Source: a virus (taxonomy: Duplodnaviria; Caudoviricetes). Taken from it: a DNA stretch of 44,497 nt. Where the stretch lies: IMG/VR virus record IMGVR_UViG_3300022307_000004, positions 1-44,497 of that record; one strand, given 5' to 3'. Of the stretch, positions 30,085 to 44,256 are shown one piece after another. The notes beneath the pieces are model-generated. The model was not told the origin of the DNA and made no database searches. It saw only the letters and a list, made by a program, of their open reading frames with translations. The translations under genes were made by a program, and so were the position numbers. The stretch's first letter is position 1. Every line of letters begins with the position of its first letter.

Positions 30085-30093
30085 GATTTTATT

Positions 30094-30118
30094 CCTTTGG
30101 AAAAATTTTTTCCATAGC
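30094..30118. repeat. 25-bp dispersed palindrome, copy 8 (overlaps exonuclease SD)
   Basis: CCTTTGG-AAAAATTTTTT-CCATAGC. Confidence 0.9.
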
Positions 30119-30126
30119 GCGAGTTA

Positions 30127-31443
30127 TTAGAATTGATTTTTAACTTTGATTAAATAATCCTGCTGATAAGACTCGGAGAGGTCGTAACCTATGGGAATCA
30201 TATCTTCAAGACCTGCTGCAATAAGCGTAGCTCCGCTGCCGGCAAAGGGGACAAGGACCTTAGCATTTGGTTTTGCAAAGGTGGTAAGGATTTCCTGCAT
30301 TAATGGGACTGGTCGTTCAGTAGGATGTTTCTTATTATCCGGGCTTACAGGGCTAAACTCAAAACCATTAATACTGCCGGGTTTAGCAAGGGTAGCTTGT
30401 CCCTTTCGAGCATAGAAAAACATTTCATAAGAGTTACCAAGTCGAGTTGTGGGGGAGTTAGTCTGACCATAAGACTTATTCCAAATTCCACACATGCGAG
30501 TAATAACAAGGCCAGTTTTCTTAATGGCCTGGTAAACGTCTTCGAACCAAGGTTCAGGAGCGAACCAGAAAACTAACCATGAACTAGGAGCCATCACACG
30601 ATAGACTTCAGACATAAGTTTCTCAAGAAAGACTTTGTAATCCTTCTTCTCAACCTCATTATAGTCCTCGTATGAGTAGTTTTGTTTGGTATGTTCGAGG
30701 TCGATTCCATAAGGTGGATCAATCTCTACTAAGTCAAACATCCCAGACTGGAGTTTTGGAAGAGCTTCGAAAACGTCATTTATAATATAAGCTTCTGACA
30801 TATGTTTCTGCTGACCACCATTAGTGGAAATAGCCGCCTTAGCATCGGTAGAAAGAACCGAACGCTCGACAATGGCAGTAACTTTTTTCAGTAGCTTGTT
30901 AGCGTCATTTTTATTTTTGCACTTTTTCCAAGGCATTTCGGGAAAGTCCTTTATAGCCTTGACAAGTTTTAGGTCTTGAACAACTGTTGAATGAGACTTG
31001 CCCAGAAGTTTTGCCGTGTCGCGGATAGAGTGTCCGGAAGCACCTGGAGCTTTTGAGATTTTTTCTCCATGAATGGAGATTTGAAGTTGATTGATTTCAT
31101 CCTCGAGGAATATCTTCTCCTCCCACGAAAGAGACTTCCGCCTGACATTCTCCTCCAACTCAATTGAACGTAGCTCGAGGTCATTTAGTTGGCGGTCATA
31201 AATACGAACAGGAATATCCTTCATACCAATCTGTTGGCAGGCTCTAAAACGGCGGCCTCCGGCGATAAGAATATACTCCTTGTCTGACTCTATATAGTTT
31301 TTTGTAAGGCCTACAGCTATAGGATTTATTAACCCCTTTTCCTTTATTGATAGGGCAAGTTCACTGATATCCCCATAGTCAACCCTTCTCCGCTCTCCCT
31401 CAAATACTTCATCAATGTTGAGAATTTTCAGCTGCATGAGCAT
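30127..31443 (-). CDS. ParB-N + HTH + N4/N6 DNA methyltransferase fusion
   Basis: LA.SI...GLINPI.V, IAGGRRFRA and EEN..R (ParB); SIRDTAKLLGKSHSTV (HTH); DPPY, HPTE.P and PFAGSG (beta-class MTase). Confidence 0.9.
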   Translation of the reverse strand: MLMQLKILNIDEVFEGERRRVDYGDISELALSIKEKGLINPIAVGLTKNYIESDKEYILIAGGRRFRACQQIGMKDIPVRIYDRQLNDLELRSIELEENVRRKSLSWEEKIFLEDEINQLQISIHGEKISKAPGASGHSIRDTAKLLGKSHSTVVQDLKLVKAIKDFPEMPWKKCKNKNDANKLLKKVTAIVERSVLSTDAKAAISTNGGQQKHMSEAYIINDVFEALPKLQSGMFDLVEIDPPYGIDLEHTKQNYSYEDYNEVEKKDYKVFLEKLMSEVYRVMAPSSWLVFWFAPEPWFEDVYQAIKKTGLVITRMCGIWNKSYGQTNSPTTRLGNSYEMFFYARKGQATLAKPGSINGFEFSPVSPDNKKHPTERPVPLMQEILTTFAKPNAKVLVPFAGSGATLIAAGLEDMIPIGYDLSESYQQDYLIKVKNQF

Positions 31444-31631
31444 CCCCCTGATTTAAGTGTCTCAATAACATTGCAGATGCTTATGTCCTCACTAACGGTA
31501 AGGTGAAATACCTGACCAGAGTCAGTGATTACTCTGACCATTCCCTTAGGTGAGTCATTAACAACTGCCTCGACTTTCTGGGGGTTAATGTAGACGGTGG
31601 GACTTATTTGTATCAGATCTATGTTTTTCAT
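31428..31631 (-). CDS. small hypothetical protein
   Basis: YINP..V pattern, overlapping operon context. Confidence 0.6.
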   Translation of the reverse strand: MKNIDLIQISPTVYINPQKVEAVVNDSPKGMVRVITDSGQVFHLTVSEDISICNVIETLKSGGCSCS

Positions 31632-31867
31632 AACTTTCCTGTAAGTTCTTGAAGAAGTTGTTGCTTCATTGAATCATCAAGCATTGAGAATAGTTGCAGA
31701 GGAGAAAGTTTGCTACTGCGTTTCTTACTCCCCTTAGTCTTGACACTTTTTGTAAGAGACTTCTTAGAAGTTCTCCTAGAAGTTCTGAGATTTTTAATTA
31801 ACTCAAATGCTTCCTCGTGAGGAAGTTGAGTGATGCTAGGCTTTAGTGAATCTATAGTCGCCATCAT
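31628..31867 (-). CDS. small basic hypothetical protein
   Basis: Translationally coupled; Lys/Arg/Ser-rich middle. Confidence 0.65.
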   Translation of the reverse strand: MMATIDSLKPSITQLPHEEAFELIKNLRTSRRTSKKSLTKSVKTKGSKKRSSKLSPLQLFSMLDDSMKQQLLQELTGKL

Positions 31868-32100
31868 GAACTCCCACTGATTGTTTTTGAAAGGTCATTT
31901 AGCTTAAGTTTGCGATCTAACACCATAGCAACGAGCATTTGAGGATTAGGATGCTCGGAAAAGGTTTTAGTAATGTCGTCAATGATACAAGAGAAGAAAG
32001 TATTCTGCGTTCCCCACGGAAGAAACTGATTAAGCTTATCCCGCTGTTCTCTTGTAATGTCAACAGATAAACGGATTCGGTATGGTTCCCTGCCTCCCAT
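31864..32100 (-). CDS. putative ribbon-helix-helix-like DNA-binding protein
   Basis: RLSVDIT.EQ...L alternating strand followed by two helices. Confidence 0.45.
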   Translation of the reverse strand: MGGREPYRIRLSVDITREQRDKLNQFLPWGTQNTFFSCIIDDITKTFSEHPNPQMLVAMVLDRKLKLNDLSKTISGSS

Positions 32101-32677
32101 CTAAGTGCTCCTTGATAATTTCTTCTATCTCCTCAAGACGTTCTTGAATAGAGATAGTTTCCAGCACGTAAATGGCTGGATAATGTGACTGTTGGTAGAA
32201 GGTGTTAAACATAAGACCTTTTAATAAAAGGTCAATCTCATATTGGTACCAGAACTTGCCAGACCTTATTCCATCATCCTCAAGTTCAAACATCCCGCAA
32301 GGGAAGAAGAAGATGATGTCGTAGTAGTTCCTGGCATAAGTCAGGCATTTGTTAATATAATCATTAAGCCATTCCTGACATTCCTGACATCTTGAAAGCC
32401 ACCTTAAAGCGTAGGCAGCATTGTCAAGGGTTGTTCGATCAGTGATAAAAGCATCAAACTTCGACTCAGCCTTTATTTTACGGCTTAGGACTTCTTCCTG
32501 AAGCTTGATAGTACCTTCATCACCCAGTTCTCTAAGATGAGAAATACCATTTGCCTTTAAGTAACTTCTTATTCCCTCTGGAATAGTAGGGATTTTCAGT
32601 TTCTCACTGACCACTTTTAACATAGTAGTCTTACCAGAACCTCCAGAACCAGTAAAACCAATTCTTATTTTTTTCAT
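32060..32677 (-). CDS. P-loop nucleotide kinase-like protein (NadR/Ttd14 AAA_28 type)
   Basis: GSGGSGKTT, I.E..R, ITDRT..D..AY and E.DG.R motifs; adjacent to thyX. Confidence 0.8.
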   Translation of the reverse strand: MKKIRIGFTGSGGSGKTTMLKVVSEKLKIPTIPEGIRSYLKANGISHLRELGDEGTIKLQEEVLSRKIKAESKFDAFITDRTTLDNAAYALRWLSRCQECQEWLNDYINKCLTYARNYYDIIFFFPCGMFELEDDGIRSGKFWYQYEIDLLLKGLMFNTFYQQSHYPAIYVLETISIQERLEEIEEIIKEHLDGRQGTIPNPFIC

Positions 32678-32688
32678 TCTTGCTGTCC

Positions 32689-33627
32689 TTACTTGGTGAT
32701 TTTTAACACTCCGTTAAAGCGTTTTGCAAGTGCCTCATTGAGTGGGAGCATAAGTTCACGAAACTGCGGATGAGCAGCTGGGGAGCAGCGCAGTTTTGAG
32801 ATGATGTTCCACTCATCAACATCGGCAGTTACAACAATCTCAGTTTTGGTGCAGTTGGGCAGGACTGATCGGGCGATCTGCGGAGAACAACCTTCATCCA
32901 GCATTGCCAGATATTTTTCTTCAGCAAACATACAAAGGCTTAACCAATGAGCACGTTGTTTTGGAGAAAGGCCTGGAGGTTCGATGAATGAGCATTCGTT
33001 TCCGAACTTTTCCTGACTATAATTACAGAAGCGAGTTGATTCCTGGGCAAATGAACAGGGGCGGTGCCGGACAATTGCATGACTGACTCCCCGGTCACAG
33101 ATGAACTTGACAGTTATCCGCTTCAAGGCCATAGGAATTTCCTCTGGGTTCATGACCGTTTCGAAAGTTTTAAAAGGAGGCGGCTCAACCGGCGGAACGA
33201 GAGTTGAAAAGTTTTCCCAAATCAAGTAACGCAATTCCTGGATAATGCTGAAATCAGTCAGCATTCCAAGGGGATTTGTAAGACTTTCAATCCAGGCCCG
33301 AAGGTTTCCACTAATGTGAAGAACTCCATCATGAATGTAGAACTTATGATAAGCAGTCCGCTCACGAAAGATTCTTCGCAAGGAGGTCTCAAGACCTCTG
33401 GGGTTGGTAGTAGTTGTGCAAACCCTGAACACCACGTTGGAGTGCTCCAGCATAGCAAGGTGTTCTTTGTTAAGCAAGGTCTTTACCATCTCCCTGGCAG
33501 AATTTTCAGTGATGCGTTCCTCACTTTTATAACAAGTTCGTGCTGCACTCTCGATCCACTCTAAGGTTTTAATGCCAGGAGCTGGACACTCACCAAGGAT
33601 TATAGTGTGGGGTGTTACTATTCTCAT
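32689..33627 (-). CDS. thyX: flavin-dependent thymidylate synthase
   Basis: ARTCYKS, H...LEH, RHR..SFAQESTR, AR.VLPN and LR....AHPQ.R motifs. Confidence 0.92.
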   Translation of the reverse strand: MRIVTPHTIILGECPAPGIKTLEWIESAARTCYKSEERITENSAREMVKTLLNKEHLAMLEHSNVVFRVCTTTTNPRGLETSLRRIFRERTAYHKFYIHDGVLHISGNLRAWIESLTNPLGMLTDFSIIQELRYLIWENFSTLVPPVEPPPFKTFETVMNPEEIPMALKRITVKFICDRGVSHAIVRHRPCSFAQESTRFCNYSQEKFGNECSFIEPPGLSPKQRAHWLSLCMFAEEKYLAMLDEGCSPQIARSVLPNCTKTEIVVTADVDEWNIISKLRCSPAAHPQFRELMLPLNEALAKRFNGVLKITK

Positions 33628-33637
33628 TTATCCTCCT

Positions 33638-33706
33638 AAAAAAGCGCCCTAGGAGGAGACCGCTAATGCCAGTAAGCGGCACAACTATGTTGTTGCCTAG
33701 GGCGCT
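33638..33706 (-). terminator. multi-branched terminator/attenuator-like structure upstream of thyX
   Basis: 11-bp stem AGCGCCCTAGG/CCTAGGGCGCT enclosing two hairpins, then a U tract and AGGAGG SD. Confidence 0.6.
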
Positions 33707-33720
33707 CAGTTTTAATGGTT

Positions 33721-33745
33721 GCTATGGTTAAAATTTAACCATAGG
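33721..33745. repeat. 25-bp dispersed palindrome, copy 9
   Basis: GCTATGG-TTAAAATTTAA-CCATAGG. Confidence 0.9.
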
Positions 33746-33750
33746 GCTGA

Positions 33751-34158
33751 TTACAGGAAGCGTTTTACATAGTTCTGCGGGCCGTACTCGGAATCTTCAT
33801 TCTCATCAACTCCAAGAATAGCCCAGCCGGTGGCGCCAATGATCTCCTCAATATTGAGCTGACCACCCGAGTAATCAATCTCGAAGGCTTTGAAGAACTT
33901 ACGCAATGCCAGAGCGGCGTTGTTTTTCTTCTTCGCATCCATCTCATCAGTAGGCAGGGCCAGATACTTCGTAAAGTTCTTGGCCGTGGGAAAATCCAGG
34001 ATTTCAAAGGTTGGCATGATATAGGGATTGTCATTCTTATCCCGATCACAACGAACGTCGATTACTTGAAGTTTTACTTCTTCATTAGACCGTACCGGCT
34101 TCAGTTCCTGAGCGTCGTCCAAGTCACCCGCAGCGATATCAAGCATTGAATCAGACAT
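33751..34158 (-). CDS. putative ssDNA-binding protein (DUF669-like OB fold)
   Basis: Acidic, beta-rich, ends YGPQNYVKRF; directly follows the Sak4-like ATPase; GAGG SD. Confidence 0.6.
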   Translation of the reverse strand: MSDSMLDIAAGDLDDAQELKPVRSNEEVKLQVIDVRCDRDKNDNPYIMPTFEILDFPTAKNFTKYLALPTDEMDAKKKNNAALALRKFFKAFEIDYSGGQLNIEEIIGATGWAILGVDENEDSEYGPQNYVKRFL

Positions 34159-34197
34159 AATAATTATACCTCGGTTTTTTTAATTTGATTAAAGTAA

Positions 34198-34230
34198 GTT
34201 TCATGTTTCACGTTTCAGGTTTCAGGTTTT
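34198..34230. repeat. 7-bp tandem repeat (GTTTCAN)x4 in the leader of the SSB-like gene
   Basis: gtttcat gtttcac gtttcag gtttcag gtttt. Confidence 0.8.
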
Positions 34231-34285
34231 AAGTTATTTTCTTCACAGGGAGCCTCCATAAGTTATGATTATTTGCTTAGATGAT

Positions 34286-35116
34286 TTACCTCAGCTTCGG
34301 TTTATCATCTGTTGAGTACCCGGCCTTTTTGAGAATCTTCTTAATGTTTGGCTCCTCGTACTTATCCAGCAGACCATCCTGAGCTAGGCGGCTACGAGCA
34401 AGATTAGTCCCCGTAGAGGCGGTAAGCAGACGATAGTTGATTCCCTTAGAGCCATCCTTAGGATCCATCACATAGATTTCATCAAACAAGAGTGGAATGG
34501 TAGTTGTTCCCTGACCCGTCGTCATGTAGCGGTAGACCATGCGGCCAGATTCCTTATCCTCCTTGGCTTCCAAGTGACCAGTAACGATTACGTCACAAGG
34601 GAAGGAGAGGATTTTCTTGAGCCAATTCCTGATGGTAGTTTTCTGTGGGGTGTAGTCCTTGGTGAATCTGGGTGCAGCACCAGGAATCCCTGCACGTTTT
34701 AACAAGGCGTTCATAATTGAATCGGCCCAGGTAGTTGAAGAGTCAAGTACGTAGGTTCCGATGTAGTCAAAGTAGCCCATCCTAAGCCGGCGTTCCATCT
34801 CCTTTTCCCACAATGTGAAGGCTGTAGGTTTCATTGGGTCTTCATTTTCAAACCTGGAGTCCACCATCACAAGGCCTTGTTCGATGTGTTTCTTAAGCCC
34901 CTTGCTGCCACCAGGATCAAAACTGTCAACATGGACAGGGCCTCGGCAAGTATGAAGCATAAAACTTTTGCCGGAGCCAGACTCGCCGAGAACCAGGGCA
35001 TTGAATGAATTGCTCTTGGGGTCCTCTTGATAAATCTTCTGGATGGCTTCAAACTCCTTCTTAATGATAAGTTTTTTAGCCTCATTAGTTTCATCAGCTT
35101 TTACTCTTTCTGTCAT
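34286..35116 (-). CDS. Sak4-like / AAA_24 ATPase (recombination)
   Basis: GESGSGKS, VLDS.T, VIVTGH, FDE.Y and A.SR motifs. Confidence 0.8.
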   Translation of the reverse strand: MTERVKADETNEAKKLIIKKEFEAIQKIYQEDPKSNSFNALVLGESGSGKSFMLHTCRGPVHVDSFDPGGSKGLKKHIEQGLVMVDSRFENEDPMKPTAFTLWEKEMERRLRMGYFDYIGTYVLDSSTTWADSIMNALLKRAGIPGAAPRFTKDYTPQKTTIRNWLKKILSFPCDVIVTGHLEAKEDKESGRMVYRYMTTGQGTTTIPLLFDEIYVMDPKDGSKGINYRLLTASTGTNLARSRLAQDGLLDKYEEPNIKKILKKAGYSTDDKPKLR

Positions 35117-35571
35117 TGCTCCTCCTTAGGTAAGTATAGTTTGTATCCGTCAGAAGTAAGAAGCTTCCAACGTTTGTTGATTTGAACCCTTGCTACGGTT
35201 CTAAAACAATTATCATTTGCTCGGCAGATATCCTCAGCAGTGTCAATTTCATCTAAGGCTTGCCAGAGTTGTTCACAAATAAGTTGAAGTTGCTTAACAT
35301 CTGTGACTTCACTGAGGGGAGTTCCGCGAGATTCATCCTCCAGTTCAACTTCTATACAGCCTCTTGGAAAGTGTTTTAACTGATCCTCTTTCCAGTGAGT
35401 TTCCGGATATTCAAAGCAGAACTTGGAGCCAAAAAGTTCAAATGCTTTCTCACGATTTTCAGCATAGCTGGGGCCATTTATGATGGCCACACAGTCACGG
35501 TCAAAAACTTGGTTGTCTATCCTATGAACATGGTCATAGCCGAAGGTGATGAAAGTTTTACAGTTTGACAT
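35113..35571 (-). CDS. hypothetical protein
   Basis: SD and operon context; .TFG..H N-terminus. Confidence 0.7.
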   Translation of the reverse strand: MSNCKTFITFGYDHVHRIDNQVFDRDCVAIINGPSYAENREKAFELFGSKFCFEYPETHWKEDQLKHFPRGCIEVELEDESRGTPLSEVTDVKQLQLICEQLWQALDEIDTAEDICRANDNCFRTVARVQINKRWKLLTSDGYKLYLPKEEQ

Positions 35572-35592
35572 AGTTAATTAACCCCCTTCCGG

Positions 35593-35868
35593 CTAAACAT
35601 CACAACGGTTAAGGATATCTTCTACTTCCTCAAGAGTCCGATAACATGAAGAAATTGTTGAGAGTAATGCATCAAAGACTGGAGCCACGTTTCGGTTTTC
35701 TGAAGTTTCTGGGGGATGAGTGGGACATGCTGGAAGGCAGAATCTATCCAGTTTCGTATCCATGTGGTCGGCAAAGATACTGAATCTACTTGCAAATTCC
35801 TCTATTGATCCAATCGTTTCGGCCATCCCGGTCATATGAGCAACTCCCAGTTCTTTACGTTCTGACAT
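35593..35868 (-). CDS. hypothetical protein
   Basis: AAGGAG SD. Confidence 0.65.
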   Translation of the reverse strand: MSERKELGVAHMTGMAETIGSIEEFASRFSIFADHMDTKLDRFCLPACPTHPPETSENRNVAPVFDALLSTISSCYRTLEEVEDILNRCDV

Positions 35869-35881
35869 TTTTTAATTCTCC

Positions 35882-36106
35882 TTATAAAATTTTTATTGGA
35901 TCAGTCCAGCCATTAACAGTATCCCACCGAGGAAACTCTTCCTCCTTAGGGTCAGGCCAGAAGATGAGGGAGTGGAAAGAAACTCCATTAAGCTCCAGCA
36001 AATCCTGCCCAGTTTGAAGTTCATCAAGGTTAATAGGGCCAGAGTTCCACTTGGAATACATCGCCCCCTCGTGAGAAGTATAGAATAGTGGCTGGAGAGT
36101 TTTCAT
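35882..36106 (-). CDS. hypothetical protein
   Basis: TAATG-coupled to the upstream mini-ORF; RWD.VNGW motif. Confidence 0.65.
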   Translation of the reverse strand: MKTLQPLFYTSHEGAMYSKWNSGPINLDELQTGQDLLELNGVSFHSLIFWPDPKEEEFPRWDTVNGWTDPIKIL

Positions 36107-36147
36107 TAGACTTCTTTTCTTATTCGTTTTGCTACTTTTGCTATCAT
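36106..36147 (-). CDS. 13-aa basic mini-ORF (MIAKVAKRIRKEV)
   Basis: AGGAG SD; stop overlaps the next start (TAATG). Confidence 0.45.
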   Translation of the reverse strand: MIAKVAKRIRKEV

Positions 36148-36167
36148 CAATTTCTCCTAATAAATTG

Positions 36168-36343
36168 TGGGGCAGGCAGGATTCGAACCTGCAAGGGTCT
36201 GTTTTAGTGGGGCATAATCCACCTTACGACAGCTTTACTCAAGGTTCTGAACATCCGCTTATTTATGCCGTTCACCGCAGAATACTTTCCCTATCTGTAG
36301 TACCCTAGCCGCCAAAAGCGTCTACCAGTTCCGCCACTGCCCT
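36168..36343 (-). ncRNA. tRNA-like RNA with ~100-nt structured insert replacing the anticodon loop
   Basis: Acceptor GGGCAG/CTGCCC, Leu-type D arm TGGCGGAACTGGTAGACGC, perfect T arm GCAGG-TTCGAAT-CCTGC, discriminator A, no encoded CCA. Confidence 0.8.
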
Positions 36344-36368
36344 GAGGAGTGTTTGGTGCAAGGAAACC

Positions 36369-37355
36369 TTACTTTAAGTCCAGATTCCATACTGCTTTGG
36401 ACGGCCTTTCGCTAGGATCCCAATGCTCCACTTTGAAACCTAAAGGAGCTTGAAATGCCTTTCTTAACGGATTTGGCCAGGCATTACAAAGGTCATGATA
36501 AACACAACCGAAGAACTTTGTGCAGTTCTTAGGATTGCATGGGAAAGACTTCATGACATCCTCTGAATCACTCTCAGTTGAAAGCAACTCATAGTTTTGC
36601 TCAAGCAGATCAATCCACCTATTAAGATGGACGTTCCAAGTCCTTATCTGATTAAAAGACTTGTTAACTGGAACTCGAGCGAACTCATACTTTTCAACCC
36701 TTGAGTTGTCCTTGACCTTTTTGAAAAAGGTCCCATTCATGACTACTCCCCGAACTTTCGAGGGGTCATAGTTACAGTACAACGCATGAGTATAAAGCAG
36801 TGGTTGGTGGTCAAGCTCCCATTGATCCTGCCAGGTTCTGGTGAATGAGGAGCCAGTTTTGTGCTCCATAGAGAAAATTTTGTCAGCTGTCCGGTCCTTT
36901 ATGATCGAGTCAAGACGAAAGTGCATGACACGACCATTAGGGCCAACCGGAACAGTACCGGCAATCTCAGTATGAAGGACTTCGAAATTCTCCTCATCAG
37001 CACTATACTTACCAGCATACTTTGCCAAGGCCTCAAAAGCCCTTAATGGAGTTTTGGGCGAGTAAAGATCATCCATATCAGGGTCATTAAAGGTTTCCCT
37101 GTAGGTTCTTTGAAAGAGCAAGAAGGCATCATAGAGGGAATCCTCACTGTAGCCATTCAAAAGAATATGCTCCATCGCATCATGCCAGGCCGAACCGAAC
37201 ACTAAATGATTATTAGGCCTGTCACTTCGCCAGCCAAGCATGTACTCATAGAAGAACTTTCTAGGACATTCGAGAAAAGAACCCAACTTCGAAGAATCCA
37301 GAATTTCATGAGTATGTGTTGGCAGAATAGGAAGTTCGTAGTTAAGGAAGCTCAT
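36369..37355 (-). CDS. PD-(D/E)XK nuclease, Cas4/RecB-like with Fe-S cysteines
   Basis: CPRK.FY, FGSA.H, E...G, R.D, EHKT, Q...Y and C-terminal C.....C.Y..LC. Confidence 0.85.
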   Translation of the reverse strand: MSFLNYELPILPTHTHEILDSSKLGSFLECPRKFFYEYMLGWRSDRPNNHLVFGSAWHDAMEHILLNGYSEDSLYDAFLLFQRTYRETFNDPDMDDLYSPKTPLRAFEALAKYAGKYSADEENFEVLHTEIAGTVPVGPNGRVMHFRLDSIIKDRTADKIFSMEHKTGSSFTRTWQDQWELDHQPLLYTHALYCNYDPSKVRGVVMNGTFFKKVKDNSRVEKYEFARVPVNKSFNQIRTWNVHLNRWIDLLEQNYELLSTESDSEDVMKSFPCNPKNCTKFFGCVYHDLCNAWPNPLRKAFQAPLGFKVEHWDPSERPSKAVWNLDLK

Positions 37356-37635
37356 CGTTAATTAAGTCCTCCAAAGTCTCTTCGGTTTCATCTTCAGCAG
37401 CTTCCACGGCTGAGTGCGCCCTGGCTGTTTCGTAAGAAACTGGACTGAGGTAAACCTTTTCACCTTTATCCAGCTTAATACAGATGTTTTTAATCGCCTT
37501 CAAGGTAGTCAATTTGAACACTTTAAAGTCCATGTTGACAATCTCCTCTGGGGTCATATCCTCAGCAATAAAGCAGTTGCCGAGTTTAGAAAAGATTGCA
37601 AACTTTCCATCAGGTTGTTTAACGATTTGATGCAT
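37342..37635 (-). CDS. hypothetical protein
   Basis: AAGGAG SD; IVKQPDGKFAIFS pattern. Confidence 0.7.
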   Translation of the reverse strand: MHQIVKQPDGKFAIFSKLGNCFIAEDMTPEEIVNMDFKVFKLTTLKAIKNICIKLDKGEKVYLSPVSYETARAHSAVEAAEDETEETLEDLINDELP

Positions 37636-37668
37636 GGGTTAGTTCTCCTTAGCTTGAGTTTGTCGTTA

Positions 37669-38055
37669 TTAGTGGACTGTTGGAGATATCTGTGCCGATC
37701 CTTTTGGCGCCCTAAGAACTTCTTCAAGGTCTTTCAAGACCCTAAGTTGTTCATACTTCATTTGCTCCATAGCTTCAGTCCTTGCGGTGCCCCAAATGGC
37801 ACATATAGTAGCTGAGGAGAGTTCCATGTTTTCAAGGATGAACTCAGCAAGTTCTTTTCCAGTGGAGTTTTTGGATTGAGTGAAGTCTCTTATTATCAGA
37901 CTTGCCTCAAAGCACTGGATATTCCAGTCTATATACTCCTCCTCAGTCATACTTTCCTGGGCTTTCTTGTCGTAAAAACGCATACCTTCAGGAGTTCTTA
38001 AGTAGTTCTTGAAGTCCTCTAATTCTTGTTGCGTGGTGGGTTTAAGCTTAGTCAT
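37669..38055 (-). CDS. hypothetical protein
   Basis: 128-aa ORF in the operon with GGAGG upstream. Confidence 0.65.
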   Translation of the reverse strand: MTKLKPTTQQELEDFKNYLRTPEGMRFYDKKAQESMTEEEYIDWNIQCFEASLIIRDFTQSKNSTGKELAEFILENMELSSATICAIWGTARTEAMEQMKYEQLRVLKDLEEVLRAPKGSAQISPTVH

Positions 38056-38085
38056 TTAAAGTCTGGTTCCTCCTTCTGAGTTTGT

Positions 38086-38110
38086 CCTATGGAAAATTTT
38101 TAACCATAGG
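38086..38110. repeat. 25-bp dispersed palindrome, copy 10
   Basis: CCTATGG-AAAATTTTTAA-CCATAGG. Confidence 0.95.
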
Positions 38111-38129
38111 GATTAATAAGCTACTTGGG

Positions 38130-38999
38130 TTAAAGTATTTCTATTTTTGAACAGAACTTGGGAACTTTCTTTGCACTGGTCAGTGCTTGGTAGTGAACTA
38201 TACATTCACGATTGATTAAGTTGGTGTTACGGATGCGCCAAAGCTCGTCACGAAGTTCATCATTAAGCCCTGCGGAGACGCCGAAGGACTGGCCATCATC
38301 AGAGCAGCAAATCAAAGTGCCGATGCGTCCCTTAGGAATGCCCTCATTAGAAACCTCTTCTCTCCAACCTATAATTCGGTAACGATCCTTTTTCTTGGGC
38401 TTAAACTTCATCATAAAGGTCGAGCGTTTTCTGACATAAGGAGCCTCAATGTGCCGGATTATCATTCCCTCATAACCTTGTGAGAGGAATAATTCATAGT
38501 ACCGCATGACTTCCTCAAATGAGTAGGCTAAGTAGTATGGGACAAACTTAATGATGTCAGACTTAAACTCCTGAGCTATTTTGGCTAGGTTAATTGTACG
38601 TTTGATTTGATGTGTTGATTCATCACAGTAGTCAAAAATGTGGAATTGCATGAGGTGAGAATCAGGGTGACGATTAACTGTGCGACTTACCACTGAATGA
38701 ATCTGCTCAAAAGTCCAGCCGTGACGGTAAAGTTCACCATCATACTCAAGGTTGGCAACTTTTGAAAGCCTGAGGAACTCATCCTGAATGTGCTCCATGA
38801 AGAAGATTATATCCTCTGTTGAGGAAATCAGGATGTTATTATGATTGGGAAGTTCTAACCGCCTGCTGCGTTCACCATCAAGTTTAGGATGCATGATAAC
38901 GGGCCAAGAGTTCCAAGCCATTCTGCTTGAACCCATAAGGCGCTTTTCCTCGAACGGTTGGGCTAGGAGGATTCCTGTGCGTTTTCGGTATTCTGACAT
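38130..38999 (-). CDS. lig: minimal ATP-dependent DNA ligase
   Basis: Motif I KLDGER, III YDGELY, IIIa FHIFD, IV EGMIIR, V MKFKP and C-terminal OB fold (VPKF). Confidence 0.9.
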   Translation of the reverse strand: MSEYRKRTGILLAQPFEEKRLMGSSRMAWNSWPVIMHPKLDGERSRRLELPNHNNILISSTEDIIFFMEHIQDEFLRLSKVANLEYDGELYRHGWTFEQIHSVVSRTVNRHPDSHLMQFHIFDYCDESTHQIKRTINLAKIAQEFKSDIIKFVPYYLAYSFEEVMRYYELFLSQGYEGMIIRHIEAPYVRKRSTFMMKFKPKKKDRYRIIGWREEVSNEGIPKGRIGTLICCSDDGQSFGVSAGLNDELRDELWRIRNTNLINRECIVHYQALTSAKKVPKFCSKIEIL

Positions 39000-39021
39000 T
39001 ATTAGTCCCCAGTTATTTCCC

Positions 39022-39216
39022 TTAATAGTGATTTAAAGTACTAACAACTCCACTGTGATGGATGCCGTACTGGTTAATTAAGTTGTCAAAATGTTCTTTG
39101 GAAAAGGCTGGGGAATCTCCTTGAATTTCTCGCTGCTTATTCTCAGCGGCCATTCCCATAGCTTCTATCAAAGCACAGACTGATTGGCTAAGAATATATG
39201 CAATTTCTTTATCCAT
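39022..39216 (-). CDS. hypothetical protein
   Basis: AGGAG SD; IEAMGM.AEN..R...G.S.A pattern. Confidence 0.7.
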   Translation of the reverse strand: MDKEIAYILSQSVCALIEAMGMAAENKQREIQGDSPAFSKEHFDNLINQYGIHHSGVVSTLNHY

Positions 39217-39234
39217 AAGTTAGTTTCTCCTAAG

Positions 39235-39453
39235 TTAGGCTTCTTTAACTCCTATATTTACACGAGTGAAAGGACAATCTGGTTCATCATAGTTCCAAAT
39301 AATCCTCTCAATCCTGTAAAACTTTCCATCACCAAGTCCACCAAGTCTAACCCCGCTACCTAGTGAGGGGATAAACAATGAGATCTTCTTGAGCAGGATG
39401 ATTCCTGTTTCTTCATCAATAAAGTGGATCAAAGCTTCAGGATTTAAAATCAC
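39235..39453 (-). CDS. hypothetical protein
   Basis: GAGG SD with GTG start, operon context. Confidence 0.6.
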   Translation of the reverse strand: MILNPEALIHFIDEETGIILLKKISLFIPSLGSGVRLGGLGDGKFYRIERIIWNYDEPDCPFTRVNIGVKEA

Positions 39454-39455
39454 CT

Positions 39456-39659
39456 TCAGTCCTCGTAGTCAAAGGCTTCCCTGGTGGCTTCGAGTGCTGC
39501 TATAACAGCCTCACGCTTAAAAACACATGCCCCATGTCCGAGGTCTAAGTAAACGAGGTCAGGATGCTTTGAATGGTTACTGACTTTAAGTACTTCACGT
39601 GTACTGTTTTCTACATGTTCTGTTACAGAACAGACTACTTCAATGAGAGGTATTGGCAT
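39456..39659 (-). CDS. hypothetical protein
   Basis: AAGGAG SD. Confidence 0.6.
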   Translation of the reverse strand: MPIPLIEVVCSVTEHVENSTREVLKVSNHSKHPDLVYLDLGHGACVFKREAVIAALEATREAFDYED

Positions 39660-39709
39660 TAGAGTTCTCCTTAACTGGTTTTAAAAATGTCAAATACATC
39701 CATTAGGAA

Positions 39710-39778
39710 TAAAAAAATCCAGACTCGGAGGTTATCAGACAGGAGGTTCTAATAAAGTTTGGTTCCGAGTCTGGATTT
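39710..39778 (-). terminator. long-stem, large-loop terminator
   Basis: 15-bp stem AAATCCAGACTCGGA/TCCGAGTCTGGATTT with ~34-nt loop, followed by U residues on the - strand. Confidence 0.65.
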
Positions 39779-39812
39779 AATCTTAACAGATGATAGTTTT
39801 TCGCTGGCCTTA

Positions 39813-40163
39813 TTAACCTTTGGCCGATGCAGCCAGGTCCTTCAACAGGGCCTTTGCCTCTGCCGGGTCCATGTTCTTGAGCTGAGCCTTCAGGGTGGCA
39901 ACTGGATCAATAACACGTTCAAGAGTCTGGCCGGGCTTCCAGTCAGCCATGCGAGCGGCAACGGCATCCTGATCCTTACCGTCTTCAAGCATCCGGCGCA
40001 TTGCAGCCTGGGCGGTGATCTTGGCGCTCTGTTTGAAGTTGCTGAAAACGACTTCGGCGCCGAACTTTTCCACGGCAGCGTCCAGGTTTTCTCCAAAGTC
40101 ATAGGCGATGGTAGCGACATGGGGTTCGTCATTGATGATCTTCTTTGCGGTGATTTCAGTCAT
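39813..40163 (-). CDS. probably highly expressed hypothetical protein
   Basis: Own promoter, AAGGAG SD, downstream terminator, GC3-rich codons. Confidence 0.8.
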   Translation of the reverse strand: MTEITAKKIINDEPHVATIAYDFGENLDAAVEKFGAEVVFSNFKQSAKITAQAAMRRMLEDGKDQDAVAARMADWKPGQTLERVIDPVATLKAQLKNMDPAEAKALLKDLAASAKG

Positions 40164-40240
40164 GATACTTTACTCCTTTTGTTAGTGGCATCAAGTGCCC
40201 TTTGGTTTGTGGTGCATAAGCACCATTTGAATGATGTTAC

Positions 40241-40269
40241 ATCATACCATTGATTGATGGAATTGTCAA
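40241..40269 (-). promoter_or_regulatory. sigma70-type promoter
   Basis: TTGACA-17 nt-TATGAT with extended -10 TG. Confidence 0.8.
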
Positions 40270-40316
40270 GCAGGCAATAGCTTTTTCAGTCCCATAGCGA
40301 CATTTTTATGGTGATT

Positions 40317-40341
40317 CCTTTGGAAAAAATATTTCCATAGG
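40317..40341. repeat. 25-bp dispersed palindrome, copy 11
   Basis: CCTTTGG-AAAAAATATTT-CCATAGG. Confidence 0.95.
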
Positions 40342-40347
40342 AAAGTT

Positions 40348-40659
40348 TCAATCTATTTGATCCCTCAGTTCTTGAAGCAGTCCTGGGTCAGACTTTAGAA
40401 GCTTTAGAAGTTTTTCAAAGCCTTGTCGTTTATCCTTCGCGGCTTTTGCTACGCGAGGTGGAACCTTAGTTATCATTTTCTCTGCTTCAAACCTGAGGAG
40501 CTGCAAGTCAATGTAGTCCTTTTGAAGCGCCCCTCGGAGGTTTTGAAGTTTTTGATAAATGTTGGAGTAATGTTTTAGCTCGAACAACACCTCAGTAAGC
40601 TGAGCTTTCAAGTCCTCTTCTTGTAACCTTAGTTCAGCTAAACCACTTTTATTAATCAT
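40348..40659 (-). CDS. coiled-coil hypothetical protein
   Basis: Heptad pattern, AAGGA SD. Confidence 0.65.
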   Translation of the reverse strand: MINKSGLAELRLQEEDLKAQLTEVLFELKHYSNIYQKLQNLRGALQKDYIDLQLLRFEAEKMITKVPPRVAKAAKDKRQGFEKLLKLLKSDPGLLQELRDQID

Positions 40660-40663
40660 AACA

Positions 40664-41119
40664 TTAGTCCTTTTTATTAGGAAAGCTTCTCAAGCCATCA
40701 TGCTCATCCTTAGTTCGCTTACCTGCTGAAAGATTTTGCTCAAGGAGTTGTTGTGCCTCACTCATGGCATCATCAAGGGATGGTGCGGAGAGGGCTTCAA
40801 AACTGGGGCCGGTATCACTTTTAGCATTAAGTGACTCAATGGCTAGTTGATTAGTAAGGGTTTTCAAGTTTCTCTGCTTCTTAGCTTTTGGCATAAGGTC
40901 GAATTGCTTGAGGATTTCAAGCGCCTTGGTGGTGGATGTTACTGATAAGCTTGAGTCTTGTTTAAGGAGGTTTTCCTTAAGTGCCTCAAGGCTGATGGTT
41001 ATTAAGTTATTACGACTTCCAGGCTCGATGTTATTCTTTCTGAGCCACAAGACAAGGGTGGCCACAGTCCTTAGGTCAAGCCTTACACTGGTAACAAATG
41101 AGTTAGTAGTTTTCATCAA
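40664..41119 (-). CDS. hypothetical protein, possible RHH-like N-terminus
   Basis: TSVRLD...ATL...S...LI..SL pattern; GGAGG SD. Confidence 0.6.
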   Translation of the reverse strand: MMKTTNSFVTSVRLDLRTVATLVLWLRKNNIEPGSRNNLITISLEALKENLLKQDSSLSVTSTTKALEILKQFDLMPKAKKQRNLKTLTNQLAIESLNAKSDTGPSFEALSAPSLDDAMSEAQQLLEQNLSAGKRTKDEHDGLRSFPNKKD

Positions 41120-41471
41120 ACTTCCTCCACGTACCTGCTTTTTTCGCAGCGACTTTTGCTATAGTTAGCACAATATCGAAGTCAGCCTCTAGAATATAAT
41201 CTAAGTAAAAACTTGGATACCTTAAGCAGCCGTTTGGCCAAAGTTTTTGAAGTGGGCAGTGCTTCGCACAAGCTGCGAAATTATCATCAGTTCCAGGAAA
41301 TGTATCAAAGGTATTACTGACATATTGGCAGCAGGGGCAATATAAAAAGATATCAAAATTAGTAAAGCCAAAACTTTTTAAAACCTCATGCTTTGCAAGG
41401 GTTTTTTTCCTATACATCTCCAACCACAGGGAGGCAGTTAGTTCAACTGCGGCACTTTTATTAAGTTTCAT
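41103..41471 (-). CDS. Cys-rich hypothetical protein
   Basis: CPCC...C..HCPL...W...C; GGAGG SD. Confidence 0.65.
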   Translation of the reverse strand: MKLNKSAAVELTASLWLEMYRKKTLAKHEVLKSFGFTNFDIFLYCPCCQYVSNTFDTFPGTDDNFAACAKHCPLQKLWPNGCLRYPSFYLDYILEADFDIVLTIAKVAAKKAGTWRKFDENY

Positions 41472-41718
41472 GTTTAGTAATTCCCTCCCTTAAAAAAGTT
41501 CTTTGATAAGCAATAATGCAAGCATGAAAATTGCTACTGGCCATAAGAAGGAGCAGATGTCCTCAACAAAGTTTTTCTTTTTACGCATTAGTTAAGTTTC
41601 TCCAAGTTAAAAAGCTCCTTGAAGGCAACCTTACTTTTAATTTGCTCAATATCAATAGTCATAATAAAACTCCCGCTCATGTGGTGGGCCAGCTAGTGAC
41701 CCACCACCACCAGTTTGA

Positions 41719-42231
41719 TTATTTCTTTTTAGCCTTAGCAAGGTCATTGTCAGTGATAATAATGTCCTCACCAGCATGTTCTGATGGAAGTTGAGGAACA
41801 GCCTCAGGATCAATAACTCGCAGTTCGTCCAACAACTGACGAGTAACAGGATCGGTTTTACTCAGGAGGAGCATAAACTTTATATCCTCCATCTCTTCCA
41901 TCCTCTGTCTGAGGCTGGCCCTAATGTCTGCAATAGCTGACTCACGCTTCATTCGCTCGAGGTAGTCATTAAGGTCTATTTTCCCAACTATCCACTTACT
42001 AGCCCGGTTGATAGCATCTTTTGAAAGTCCAGAGACTTTGCAAACAGTTGCTACTTTAGGAAATACCCGAGGAGGTACGCCGGTGGCTACCAGCACAGAG
42101 TCATTGACTTGGATACTGTCATCATCAGTCCAATAGGAGTATGATTTGGTGGAAGTATCAAACTCAGAATTTCTCGCACTAGAGATACTAACACTTATTG
42201 GGAACCTTACTTGAATTACTTTTCTTGGCAT
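41719..42231 (-). CDS. hypothetical phage protein
   Basis: AAGGAG SD; K.Y.Y....V.D.V.V...A.KWIVGKID pattern. Confidence 0.75.
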   Translation of the reverse strand: MPRKVIQVRFPISVSISSARNSEFDTSTKSYSYWTDDDSIQVNDSVLVATGVPPRVFPKVATVCKVSGLSKDAINRASKWIVGKIDLNDYLERMKRESAIADIRASLRQRMEEMEDIKFMLLLSKTDPVTRQLLDELRVIDPEAVPQLPSEHAGEDIIITDNDLAKAKKK

Positions 42232-42285
42232 GATGTTTCTCCTTTTGTTAAGTTATACTGCGTTAAGTTGGTTAAGGGCCTAAGT

Positions 42286-42338
42286 TTAAGAGTCCTATAA
42301 GGCACCCAAAGTTAATTGGGTGCCCTAAGGAATCTTAA
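42286..42338. other. long imperfect intergenic hairpin (RNase III site-like)
   Basis: TTAAGAGTCCT..AGGCACCCAA / TTGGGTGCC..AGGAATCTTAA. Confidence 0.55.
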
Positions 42339-42342
42339 TAGG

Positions 42343-42606
42343 TTAAAGCTCCAGTAGGCCTTGAAGGCGTTTTCTGATAATTAGCTCAATCCAACTGGAG
42401 TCGAATCTGTTCAAACGAGTGCGGAAGGCCATCCTGATTAAAAACTCACCTTCGGGGCAAACTATGTGGACTAGCGTACCTTTGTTGTTTACGAAGGCTG
42501 TCCACTTATGATAACGGCTGGCATCTTCAAGTTTCATGGCTAAGCTGGCACGAAGGTCAGCAGGGAATTTAACATACAGTTTTAGCTTCAGTTTTAGCTT
42601 CTTCAA
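42343..42606 (-). CDS. hypothetical protein
   Basis: TTG start with GGAG upstream. Confidence 0.55.
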   Translation of the reverse strand: MKKLKLKLKLYVKFPADLRASLAMKLEDASRYHKWTAFVNNKGTLVHIVCPEGEFLIRMAFRTRLNRFDSSWIELIIRKRLQGLLEL

Positions 42607-42622
42607 GGGAGGTTACTCCAGG

Positions 42623-43111: not shown

Positions 43112-43260
43112 TTGCTTCCCTCCTTAGCTTTTTGAAGTTTAAGCAGCTCTTTTGCCCGCTGAGATTGCCACTCAAAGGCTTTTTTGCTGGTTGGCTTGAA
43201 AATCCTATGGGCAAACGTACAGGTTTGCTCTGGACAGAGAGTTGAAAAGTATGTTCTCAT
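43108..43260 (-). CDS. small hypothetical protein (50 aa)
   Basis: GGAGG SD favours the start at 43260 (MRTYFS). Confidence 0.55.
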   Translation of the reverse strand: MRTYFSTLCPEQTCTFAHRIFKPTSKKAFEWQSQRAKELLKLQKAKEGSK

Positions 43261-43270
43261 AACTTCCTCC

Positions 43271-43501: not shown

Positions 43502-43541
43502 TGCTTAGTTACCTCCTGCTGTTGTTATGGTTAAGTGGTGC

Positions 43542-43607
43542 TTAATGGTTATGAAAAAGCACTTGAATGGTTAAGTGGTTGCTCAAGTGCTTTATCATAA
43601 CTGTTAA
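43542..43607. other. long imperfect intergenic hairpin (RNase III site-like)
   Basis: TTAATGGTTATGAAAAAGCACTTGA / TCAAGTGCTTTATCATAACTGTTAA. Confidence 0.6.
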
Positions 43608-44231: not shown

Positions 44232-44256
44232 GTAGTGGTGGGATGATACAGTGGTG

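What the first reader, a model, noticed from the sequence alone, without database searches (positions are those of the whole stretch)
36168..36343. 176-nt tRNA-like RNA with the anticodon loop replaced by a large structured domain
Seen in sequence (- strand): AGGGCAG-TG-GCGGAACTGGTAGACGC ... GCAGG-TTCGAAT-CCTGC-CTGCCCC-A. The acceptor stem (A1/C72 mismatch), D arm with GG and T arm are canonical. After the D arm, TTTTGGCGG can pair with CCACTAAAA and enclose ~100 nt with further pairings (GGCATAA/TTATGCC and TGAAC/GTTCA, possibly a pseudoknot). It is too short for a group I intron, and it lacks the G3-U70 pair and an obvious tag ORF of tmRNA. Established: bacterial LeuRS relies on A73 and D/T architecture rather than the anticodon, and some bacterial Y RNAs contain tRNA-like domains. 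Inference: this may be a tRNA-mimic ncRNA, for example a decoy for anticodon nucleases, a chargeable mimic or an RNase P/Z processing signal, rather than a decayed tRNA.
Basis: partly seen in the sequence, partly recalled or inferred. Interest (0 to 1): 0.75.

Follow-up and report, generated by a model that had tools for sequence, protein, structure and literature searches.

The report
Phage tRNA chassis carrying conserved cargo
A small uncultured phage carries a gene for a 176-base RNA that keeps the outer frame of a leucine tRNA but holds, in place of the anticodon and variable arms, a 125-base domain also found in two otherwise barely related phages, so the frame likely gets the RNA cut out and protected by host enzymes while the domain likely does a still-unknown job.

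Summary
Confirmed at 36168-36343 (-): Leu-type D arm, T arm, 6-bp acceptor, U48, A73, no CCA, 125-nt insert. ARAGORN (default) and Rfam find nothing. The window is a 44.5-kb podovirus-like phage; the RNA sits 25 nt after the exonuclease gene.

The insert is not a unique scar. Two homologues (L352, L406) are 76-77% identical over the whole RNA, in phages with no other blastn match and shared proteins at about 30% identity or less. Their acceptor stems are rewritten with compensatory pairs. In the 7-bp register both homologues have C73, so leucylation is doubtful. Intron, tmRNA, Y RNA, ORF and antisense readings failed.

The frame belongs to a wide phage class (78 distinct long frames, 46 insert clusters here) that includes T5 RNA1. 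This scan noted the class before on other DNA, but I found no note of this insert. Best reading: a natural tRNA scaffold releasing a trans-acting cargo RNA. No expression data exist here.

The parts
36168..36343 (-). Whole tRNA-framed RNA gene, 176 nt to the discriminator (RNA position n = window 36344 - n)
36337..36343 (-). Acceptor stem, 5' strand (positions 1-7); sequence rewritten in homologues with pairing kept
   Evidence: 6, 7 and 6 of 7 pairs; 1 of 7 columns invariant
36318..36336 (-). U8-G9 and Leu-type D arm (3-bp stem, A14, A15, G18, G19)
   Evidence: 18 of 19 columns invariant (partly imposed by the search patterns); best public matches of the L406 D arm are mostly tRNA-Leu genes
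36193..36317 (-). 125-nt cargo domain replacing the anticodon and variable arms; last base is U48
36307..36313 (-). P1 5' strand (31-37), pairs with 110-116 (36228-36234)
   Evidence: 7 of 7 pairs in 3 of 3 sequences, one one-sided change, otherwise invariant, three G·U in homologues
36282..36303 (-). P2 hairpin (41-45/58-62) with 11-12-nt purine-rich loop ending in GGAA
   Evidence: invariant stem, so no covariation support
36254..36281 (-). P3 hairpin (63-67/86-90); its 17-19-nt loop holds the kissing strand 75-81 (36263-36269)
   Evidence: 5 of 5 pairs in 3 of 3, three pairs with a change on both sides
36228..36253 (-). Conserved block 91-116: short GUU/AAC motif, AGUAAA and P1 3' strand; 92-102 can also pair with the RNA's own T arm
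   Evidence: 21 of 26 columns invariant; anti-T-arm pairing not better than shuffles
36206..36223 (-). Probable P4 hairpin (121-125/134-138); its loop holds the kissing strand 127-133 (36211-36217)
   Evidence: 5, 4 and 5 pairs with different sequence in each homologue; combined shuffle p = 0.06; kiss in the two homologues alone p = 0.024
36193..36205 (-). Conserved A-rich joiner and 146-150, which can pair with 38-42 (candidate pseudoknot), then U48
   Evidence: 9 of 13 columns invariant; 5, 4 and 5 of 5 pairs; overlaps P2 by two bases, unresolved
36176..36192 (-). T arm (5-bp stem, canonical 7-nt T loop)
   Evidence: G-C to A-U compensation at the first pair in L406
36165..36175 (-). Acceptor 3' strand, A73 (36168) and CAA trailer in place of CCA
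   Evidence: ACAA is the commonest tail of the class, 12 of 51
36369..37355 (-). Upstream co-oriented PD-(D/E)XK exonuclease gene; stop 25 nt before the RNA (context)
   Evidence: PF12705 E 4.5e-15; phrog_1218
36106..36147 (-). 13-codon basic ORF after an AGGAG site (36154-36158), its stop overlapping the start of the 74-aa ORF 35882-36106 (context; not shared with homologues)
   Evidence: no family for the 74-aa protein

Best explanation
This is a phage gene for a non-decoding RNA built of a leucine-tRNA frame and a conserved 125-base domain, and the frame likely serves as a natural tRNA scaffold that host processing enzymes would cut out of the replication-gene transcript and keep stable, so that the domain would act in trans, most likely by binding a host protein. 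Shown: the frame and its elbow positions (A15 with U48, G18-G19, T loop); no anticodon arm; conservation and partial covariation of the insert across three barely related phages; free variation of the acceptor sequence; a co-oriented position within 0.8 kb of a PD-(D/E)XK-type nuclease gene in all three; a class of frames with exchangeable inserts. Inferred from established tRNA biology: RNase P cuts at 36343, the 3' trailer is trimmed, CCA may be added. Inferred and untested: expression, the P3-P4 kissing fold in vivo, and a protein-binding (decoy or aptamer) role against a host defence or translation-control factor.
For: Insert found again in L352, which was picked up by a frame-only pattern, at 74% over 95 nt, E 3e-9 against 86 unique inserts, and in L406. 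The whole RNA is 76-77% identical over 162-175 nt and is the only blastn match (E < 0.01) between the window and either record; tblastn finds 3 shared proteins at 22-27% with G002, 1 borderline hit with G001 and none between G002 and G001. Acceptor 1 of 7 columns invariant yet paired, insert blocks 16 of 19 and 21 of 26 invariant. P1-P3: 51 of 51 cells paired, 3 pairs changed on both sides, slid controls 39-62%. Class: 78 distinct long Leu-type frames in 46 insert clusters, 53-182 nt; one insert family sits on 6 different acceptor stems and one acceptor stem carries 11 inserts; U48 in 23 of 23 acceptors from loci not selected for it. CCA is encoded in 1 of 51 frames against 21 of 53 true tRNA-Leu genes (p 1e-6). 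The downstream genes differ in the three phages and L406 is followed by a hairpin plus U run, which fits a trans-acting RNA. T5 RNA1, annotated as a tRNA-like stable RNA, is caught by the same detector with an 80-nt insert. The engineered tRNA scaffold has this design and works in E. coli (PMC3753655, passages).
Against: No expression, processing or binding was observed. Only 3 distinct family members are known, so covariation is thin: 39 of 500 shuffles reach the observed score, P4 combined p = 0.06, and P1 and P2 are nearly invariant. In the unconstrained 2D ensemble of the window's copy the T stem has p = 0.01 because 92-102 pairs with the T arm (0.39 and 0.84 in homologues); the frame-constrained fold lies 2.5-3.6 kcal/mol above the minimum. 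No partner protein is shared by the three phages. A73 is still enriched in the class (37 of 51), which a pure chassis need not keep. The protein-binding role has no direct support.
Confidence: 0.57

Rival explanations
1. The frame is the working end: an elbow and acceptor decoy that titrates tRNA-recognising host factors (tRNA-cutting defence nucleases, LeuRS, uncharged-tRNA sensors), with the insert only shielding or replacing the cleavable anticodon.
For: D and T arms are the most constant part across 46 unrelated insert clusters (partly imposed by the patterns). A73 in 37 of 51 acceptors. The anticodon arm is dispensable for leucylation (PMC2377443, abstract). L352 can be read as an 8-bp acceptor followed by A-CCA.
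Against: The insert has invariant blocks outside helices in phages that share little else, which filler would not need. In the 7-bp register both homologues have C73, and A73 falls from 53 of 53 in true tRNA-Leu to 37 of 51 (p 2e-5). There is no variable arm, whose orientation LeuRS needs (same abstract). An RNA without an anticodon loop is a poor substrate mimic for anticodon nucleases (inference).
Confidence: 0.2
2. The cargo is a catalytic or ligand-binding RNA of an undescribed class (small ribozyme or sensor), carried in a tRNA frame for folding and release.
For: Size (122-127 nt), stacked P2-P3, a loop-loop kiss, candidate further pseudoknots (91-94 with 141-144; 38-42 with 146-150) and invariant joining strands are the general anatomy of ribozyme and riboswitch cores (my own knowledge).
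Against: No Rfam match over the RNA at E up to 10 for any of the three. Resemblances to group I, pistol and glmS cores that I considered by eye, from memory, lacked their catalytic elements or the right order. No excision restores a tRNA. Downstream genes are not shared, so a cis sensor is unlikely.
Confidence: 0.11
3. It is a cis processing signal: RNase P and 3' processing at the frame cut the replication operon mRNA and tune the expression of the genes on either side.
For: Tight intergenic, co-oriented position 25 nt after a stop and 10 nt before an AGGAG site. The leader CUCCU can pair with that site in the unprocessed window transcript.
Against: It does not explain insert conservation. 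In L406 the RNA is followed by a terminator-like hairpin. None of 114 distinct exonuclease relatives has a frame in this slot. The leader pairing rests on 5 bp and no such pairing is evident in the homologues' flanks.
Confidence: 0.07
4. It is an intron-containing tRNA or a minimal tmRNA.
For: ARAGORN with -i calls an intron-bearing tRNA in each of the three. Lak phage tRNAs have unexplained introns (PMC6784885, passages). A tmRNA-like resume context precedes a 5-codon frame in the window's copy (my reading).
Against: The three -i calls disagree (Ser, Pro, Met). Exhaustive single excision gave 0 canonical anticodon arms in 3 of 3. ARAGORN tmRNA search found 0 of 3 at a lowered threshold. There is no G3·U70, a D stem is present, and indels shift the reading frame between homologues.
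Confidence: 0.03
5. It is a decayed tRNA-Leu gene or an integration scar with a random insertion.
For: A1·C72 mismatch; no encoded CCA; folding z-score 0.11; absent from this slot in 114 relatives.
Against: Insert conserved with compensatory changes in two distant phages; acceptor rewritten but paired.
Confidence: 0.02

Closest known systems
Phage T5 RNA1 (NC_005859 30501-30644; annotated 'tRNA-like stable RNA with unknown functions'), with RNA2 and RNA3
   Same: Leu-type D arm, T arm and acceptor stem around a non-anticodon insert; RNA1 passes the same frame detector with an 80-nt insert. Function unknown in both.
   Different: Unrelated insert (no R1 match over RNA1). T5's RNAs lie in a large tRNA cluster; this one is in the replication module of a 44-kb phage with no tRNA genes, as are both homologues.
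Phage T4 RNAC (species 1 RNA, 139 nt) and RNAD
   Same: Small stable phage RNA of unknown role (PMC3014915, PMC9697503, passages); RNAC has a canonical T arm near its 3' end and is followed by CAA in the genome, like this gene.
   Different: RNAC was not picked up by my frame detector and shows no Leu-type D arm; no sequence or model match; it lies in a tRNA cluster.
Engineered tRNA scaffold for recombinant RNA (PMC3753655)
   Same: Acceptor stem, D and T arms kept, anticodon stem-loop replaced by a cargo, so that host enzymes process and protect the RNA (passages).
   Different: Artificial; it keeps a hairpin at the insertion site, while here no conserved anticodon-stem equivalent was found (9 of 78 frames against a shuffle mean of 5.8).
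tmRNA (SsrA)
   Same: Acceptor and T arm closing a large pseudoknotted insert.
   Different: Has a D stem, no G3·U70, no conserved tag frame, half the usual size; not detected by ARAGORN or Rfam.
Bacterial Y RNA YrlA
   Same: D and T arm mimicry with a Levitt pair; also found in phages (PMC4201824, passages).
   Different: In YrlA the acceptor-like stem-loop lies between the T and D arms (permuted order) and the RNAs were found with Ro60; here the order is that of a normal tRNA and none of 61 ORFs matched a Ro60/TROVE family.
Intron-bearing tRNAs of Lak megaphages
   Same: Phage tRNA-like genes with long conserved insertions that Rfam does not classify (PMC6784885, passages).
   Different: Lak has alleles with and without the insert; here no excision gives a tRNA and no insert-free allele was found.

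Membership tests
Bacterial tRNA-Leu (RF00005) | Acceptor stem, D arm with G18-G19, T arm, A15·U48 | tested here: met
Bacterial tRNA-Leu (RF00005) | 5-bp anticodon stem with 7-nt loop and U33, long variable arm | tested here: not met
   125-nt insert; ARAGORN 0; Rfam 0
Bacterial tRNA-Leu (RF00005) | A73 discriminator | tested here: inconclusive
   A73 here; C73 in both homologues in the 7-bp register, though their stems can extend by 1-2 bp to leave an A
Bacterial tRNA-Leu (RF00005) | Leucylation by LeuRS | not testable with these tools
   needs an in vitro assay
Intron-containing tRNA | One excision restores a canonical anticodon arm, at the same site in homologues | tested here: not met
   0 solutions in 3 of 3; ARAGORN -i gives Ser, Pro and Met
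Group I intron | Rfam group I core match; P7 with guanosine site; P1 with U·G at the splice site | tested here: not met
   no match over the RNA at E up to 10; no P7-type pairing seen among conserved helices (feature list recalled)
tmRNA | G3·U70 and a D loop without a stem | tested here: not met
   G3-C70, G-C and A·C at 3-70 in the three; 3-bp D stem; G3·U70 in 1 of 51 class acceptors
tmRNA | Conserved resume codon and tag frame | tested here: not met
   indels of different length shift the frame; peptides differ in all three frames; ARAGORN -m 0 of 3
YrlA / bacterial Y RNA | Permuted tRNA-like domain and a Ro60 gene in the genome | tested here: not met
   normal 5'-D-insert-T-3' order; no TROVE family among 61 ORFs; CheckV completeness 93%
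T5 RNA1-type phage tRNA-like stable RNAs (a kind, not a curated family) | Leu-type D arm, T arm and paired acceptor around a non-anticodon insert | tested here: met
   one detector finds both
T5 RNA1-type phage tRNA-like stable RNAs (a kind, not a curated family) | Accumulates as a discrete stable RNA in infection | not testable with these tools
   uncultured phage; needs northern or small-RNA sequencing
Antisense RNA acting on the phage's own genes | Conserved complementarity to an mRNA of the same genome | tested here: not met
   best 14-nt match is no better than shuffles (-24.5 against -20.4 to -26.5 kcal/mol) and is not repeated in homologues; host targets not tested, host unknown

The most novel reading that the evidence does not exclude
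Phages have evolved the tRNA scaffold on their own: one leucine-tRNA chassis delivers a library of dozens of unrelated folded RNA effectors, and this cargo is a new kissing-loop aptamer or ribozyme that moves as a self-contained 176-nt module between unrelated phages to disarm a host defence or redirect a host machine during DNA replication.
Probability: 0.35. Interest if true: 0.85.

Novelty: new variant of a known kind. Interest (0 to 1): 0.6.

Why it matters
Standard tools miss these genes (ARAGORN default and Rfam give nothing; ARAGORN -i mislabels them as intron-bearing tRNAs), yet a simple pattern finds dozens of unrelated cargo families. If the frame is a delivery chassis, the long-unexplained tRNA-like stable RNAs of T5 and T4 become examples of a general phage strategy, and each cargo is a candidate RNA effector. 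This member helps separate frame from cargo: its cargo is held at 76-77% identity with covarying helices across phages that share almost nothing else, while its acceptor stem drifts. That makes the frame-swap and cargo-swap experiments directly testable with three natural variants.

Tried and rejected
Exact D-arm-plus-insert scan of IMG/VR: 0 hits. blastn of the RNA against phage records: only T-arm or D-arm matches, none over 80% of the query; of the L352 insert: one short chance match; plasmids: 4 short chance matches. GTDB genome scans: 0 hits and 7 hits, none in a tRNA frame, so no host lead. 3'-block viral scan: 3 of 14 hits real, all the L352 sequence. Frame-free viral scan: 4 of 8 hits real, all known members; no insert without its frame. 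nhmmer with the insert profile over 1.84 Mb of held loci and the covariance model R1 over 89 sources (433 kb) found only the three sequences. Sequencing runs: no RNA holder listed; the two DNA runs showed no variants over the RNA. Promoter and terminator scans were at shuffle level (13 against 10.6; 4 against 6.6). Anti-T-arm complementarity: present in 3 of 3 but no better than shuffles (16, 11 and 12 of 25 as good) and not enriched in the class (5 of 61 at 1 of 25 or better). A sarcin-ricin-like reading of the P2 region was considered by eye and dropped, since it lacks a closing helix and competes with P2. Pistol, glmS and group I resemblances were recalled leads only and failed. In one search my anchors for P3 and for one candidate helix in L352 were off; P3 was redone, the other helix (37-40 with 100-104) was dropped. 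Supplements of PMC10690425: no hit for two conserved 11-mers in 6 files, but files 1, 2 and 4 could not be searched, so this insert may be among its 10,006 candidates. The Atlas search of the downstream 74-aa protein gave only sub-threshold leads.

Full report
Observation. On the - strand, 36343 to 36168 reads as a tRNA frame: acceptor strand, U8-G9, a 3-bp D stem with the loop typical of tRNA-Leu, 125 nt of other sequence ending in U, a canonical T arm, the second acceptor strand, A73 and then CAA. Six acceptor pairs form and A1·C72 does not. ARAGORN finds no tRNA or tmRNA in the window. Rfam finds nothing at gathering level in the whole window, at E up to 1 in 30000-44497, or over the RNA at E up to 10. 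The folding energy is ordinary (z = 0.11 against 200 shuffles). A detector that asks for D arm, T arm and a paired acceptor gave 7 hits in 161 phage loci, one of them this genome, and 0 on the same sequences reversed, so the frame is not chance.

Setting. The window is a whole virus record of 44,497 bases, CheckV completeness 93%. It encodes SU10-type capsid, portal and adaptor proteins, a terminase, PolA, a primase, Thy1, an ATP-dependent ligase, a Sak4-like protein and a PD-(D/E)XK exonuclease: a podovirus-like phage. The RNA starts 25 nt after the exonuclease stop, on the same strand, and ends 10 nt before an AGGAG site that precedes a 13-codon ORF coupled to a 74-aa ORF of no known family. 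Among 114 distinct exonuclease relatives with at least 300 nt downstream, four had a D- or T-like motif in the next 450 nt; on inspection all four lay in or at the end of coding sequence and none formed a frame. The RNA is therefore an accessory element in a variable slot. Six other relative loci (L131, L140, L151, L183, L226, L227) carry a co-oriented frame 1.4-3.9 kb from the exonuclease, each with an unrelated insert of 48-182 nt.

The class. A scan of IMG/VR for a Leu D arm 110-140 nt before a T loop returned 120 loci from a third of the collection; 44 of the 120 hold a single long frame, many of the rest being tandem tRNAs. A second pattern that also fixed the T stem returned 104 loci, 86 with a long frame. 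Pooled, there are 78 distinct long Leu-type frames in 46 insert clusters. Frame and insert assort freely: one insert family of 15 sequences sits on 6 different acceptor stems, and one acceptor stem carries 11 different inserts. U48, the partner of A15, is present in 51 of 51 acceptors and in 23 of 23 from loci not selected for it. A73 is kept in 37 of 51 against 53 of 53 true tRNA-Leu genes from the same loci, and CCA is encoded in 1 of 51 against 21 of 53; the usual tail is ACAA or ACTA. An anticodon-stem equivalent is not enriched (9 of 78 against a shuffle mean of 5.8, maximum 13). The D and T arm constancy is partly imposed by my patterns, and acceptor pairing by my detector. Earlier notes of this scan describe the same class on other genomes (8 of 16 shown); look-ups by sequence and by place found no note on this insert.

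This insert has homologues. L352, found by the frame-only pattern, matches the insert at 74% over 95 nt (E 3e-9 against 86 unique inserts); the same sequence occurs in three contigs. L406 came from a pattern of D arm plus first insert block. Four further scans, nhmmer over 1.84 Mb and a covariance model over 89 sources added no fourth sequence and no copy without a frame. The RNA is 76-77% identical over 162-175 nt between the window and the two records, and it is their only blastn match at E < 0.01. Protein links are three hits at 22-27% identity to G002 (a 17.7-kb fragment), one borderline hit to G001, and none between G002 and G001. In G001 the RNA follows a PD-(D/E)XK nuclease and an ssDNA-binding protein gene, precedes PolA, and is followed by a hairpin and U run. 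In G002 it lies between a Dda-like helicase region and the exonuclease-like gene. All three thus sit in the replication module within 0.8 kb of such a nuclease gene, with different immediate neighbours, and none of the three records has an ordinary tRNA gene.

Structure. The acceptor stem is rewritten in each homologue (1 of 7 columns invariant) but keeps 6-7 pairs; the first T-stem pair changes from G-C to A-U in L406. In the insert, P1 (31-37/110-116) and P2 (41-45/58-62) pair in all three but are nearly invariant, so they are compatible with the data rather than proven. P3 (63-67/86-90) has three pairs changed on both sides; over P1-P3 all 51 cells pair, against 39-62% when slid, though 39 of 500 shuffles reach the same score with only three sequences. 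A hairpin P4 (121-125/134-138) closes at the same base in all three with different sequences (5, 4, 5 pairs; combined shuffle p = 0.06). UGAAC/GUUCA keeps 5, 4 and 5 of 5 but would leave one base after P3; 38-42 with 146-150 (5, 4, 5 pairs) and 91-94 with 141-144 (invariant) are further candidates that partly exclude one another. Against the model: block 92-102 can pair with the RNA's own T arm, and a 2D ensemble without tertiary contacts prefers that in the window's copy (T stem p = 0.01; 0.39 and 0.84 in the homologues). That duplex is no stronger than shuffles give, so I treat it as a caveat and a possible folding switch, not as a finding.

What it is not. Not a decoding tRNA: no anticodon arm. 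Not an intron-bearing tRNA: no single excision yields a canonical arm in any of the three, and ARAGORN -i names three different amino acids. Not tmRNA: no G3·U70, a D stem, no conserved frame, 0 of 3 by ARAGORN -m. Not YrlA: there the acceptor-like stem lies between the T and D arms and the RNAs go with Ro60 (PMC4201824, passages), and no Ro60 family matched 61 ORFs. Not an antisense RNA to its own genome: one 14-nt match to ORF 31864-32100 is no better than shuffles and has no counterpart in the homologues. Leucylation is doubtful. [quoted passage not shown] The core is here, the variable arm is not, and both homologues have C73 in the 7-bp register, although L352 can be read as 8 bp plus A-CCA.

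Mechanism. What stays fixed in the frame is shape: elbow bases and a paired acceptor-T helix, not acceptor identity. That is what processing enzymes read (established knowledge), and it is the design of the engineered tRNA scaffold, in which acceptor, D and T arms carry a foreign RNA in place of the anticodon arm so that it is processed and protected in E. coli (PMC3753655, passages). I infer that the RNA is co-transcribed with the replication genes, cut at 36343 by RNase P, trimmed at the 3' end, perhaps given CCA, and accumulates. The cargo is under its own selection, has no fixed downstream gene, no reading frame and no antisense target in the phage, so I infer that it acts in trans as a folded, protein-binding RNA, most likely against a host defence or translation-control factor. 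The last step has no direct evidence. I give this chain 0.57; the frame as working decoy 0.20; a catalytic or sensing cargo 0.11; a cis processing signal 0.07; intron or tmRNA 0.03; decay 0.02.

Comparison with what is known. T5 RNA1 is annotated as a tRNA-like stable RNA of unknown function and passes the same detector with an 80-nt insert: the same kind, with a different cargo and a tRNA-cluster setting. T4 RNAC and RNAD are expressed RNAs of unknown role (PMC3014915 and PMC9697503, passages); RNAC has a T arm and a genomic CAA tail but no Leu-type D arm. Lak phage tRNA introns are a looser parallel (PMC6784885, passages). A survey of viral candidate RNAs names five tRNA-like candidates, none described as a frame with cargo (PMC10690425, passages); three of its supplementary files could not be searched. 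A review of non-canonical tRNAs does not mention phages (PMC7609411, passages). PMC10424219 (passages) added nothing specific. Full-text searches (listings only) found no paper that describes the class; the library lacks most subscription papers and the older T4 and T5 literature, so this is no proof of absence.

Verdict. A real, conserved, non-decoding phage RNA gene: a new cargo family in a kind of RNA known from T5 but, as far as I could search, not catalogued. New variant of a known kind; interest 0.6. The limits are three family members, no host and no expression data.

Noticed in passing
L405 (- strand, 1412-1538), L411 (+, near 1485-1620), L415 (- strand): A second cargo family (inserts of 76-83 nt) in the same Leu frame starts with the same GGCGGCUAGGG block and has CAGAAC further on, with acceptor stems extended to 10-11 bp. 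It may be a distant relative of this insert, but it was selected on that block and model R1 does not match it.
   Followed up: partly
L007, L068, L072, L116 (frame near 289-477): A frame whose 133-nt insert itself holds a second D-arm-like and T-arm-like element: a tRNA-like RNA nested in a tRNA-like RNA, reminiscent of the Lak intron that may encode a tRNA.
   Followed up: no
L015, L033, L077, L098: Several frames with the same acceptor stem (AGTCAGG) but different inserts lie in tandem within single large phage contigs, which would allow cargo exchange by recombination.
   Followed up: no
class-wide: Frames keep C74 (35 of 51) and A76 (34 of 51) but avoid C75 (5 of 51 against 25 of 53 in tRNA-Leu, p 3e-5): an A-C-N-A tail that is almost never CCA.
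   Followed up: partly
window 36106-36147 (-): 13-codon Lys/Arg-rich ORF with its own AGGAG site, stop overlapping the next start; the leader 6 to 2 nt before the RNA (CUCCU) can pair with that site in the unprocessed transcript.
   Followed up: partly
window 31996-32009 (+): 14-nt exact copy of RNA positions 55-68, antisense to ORF 31864-32100; not better than shuffles and not seen in homologues.
   Followed up: yes
window 5864-6790 and 6717-7403 (+): The terminase large subunit is in two overlapping ORFs that match consecutive parts of phrog_38: split gene, frameshift or assembly error.
   Followed up: no
window 27030-29075 and 29497-30084 (-): PolA has a separate stand-alone 3'-5' exonuclease gene upstream, with a 420-nt gap between them that holds no - strand ORF of 60 aa.
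   Followed up: no
window 30127-31443 (-): ParB-N domain fused to an N6/N4 DNA methylase; a distant homologue is one of the three proteins shared with G002.
   Followed up: no
run X1, record 2: A 166-nt contig in the same DNA run matches only the D and T arms of this RNA with about 120 other bases between: another frame with a different cargo.
   Followed up: no
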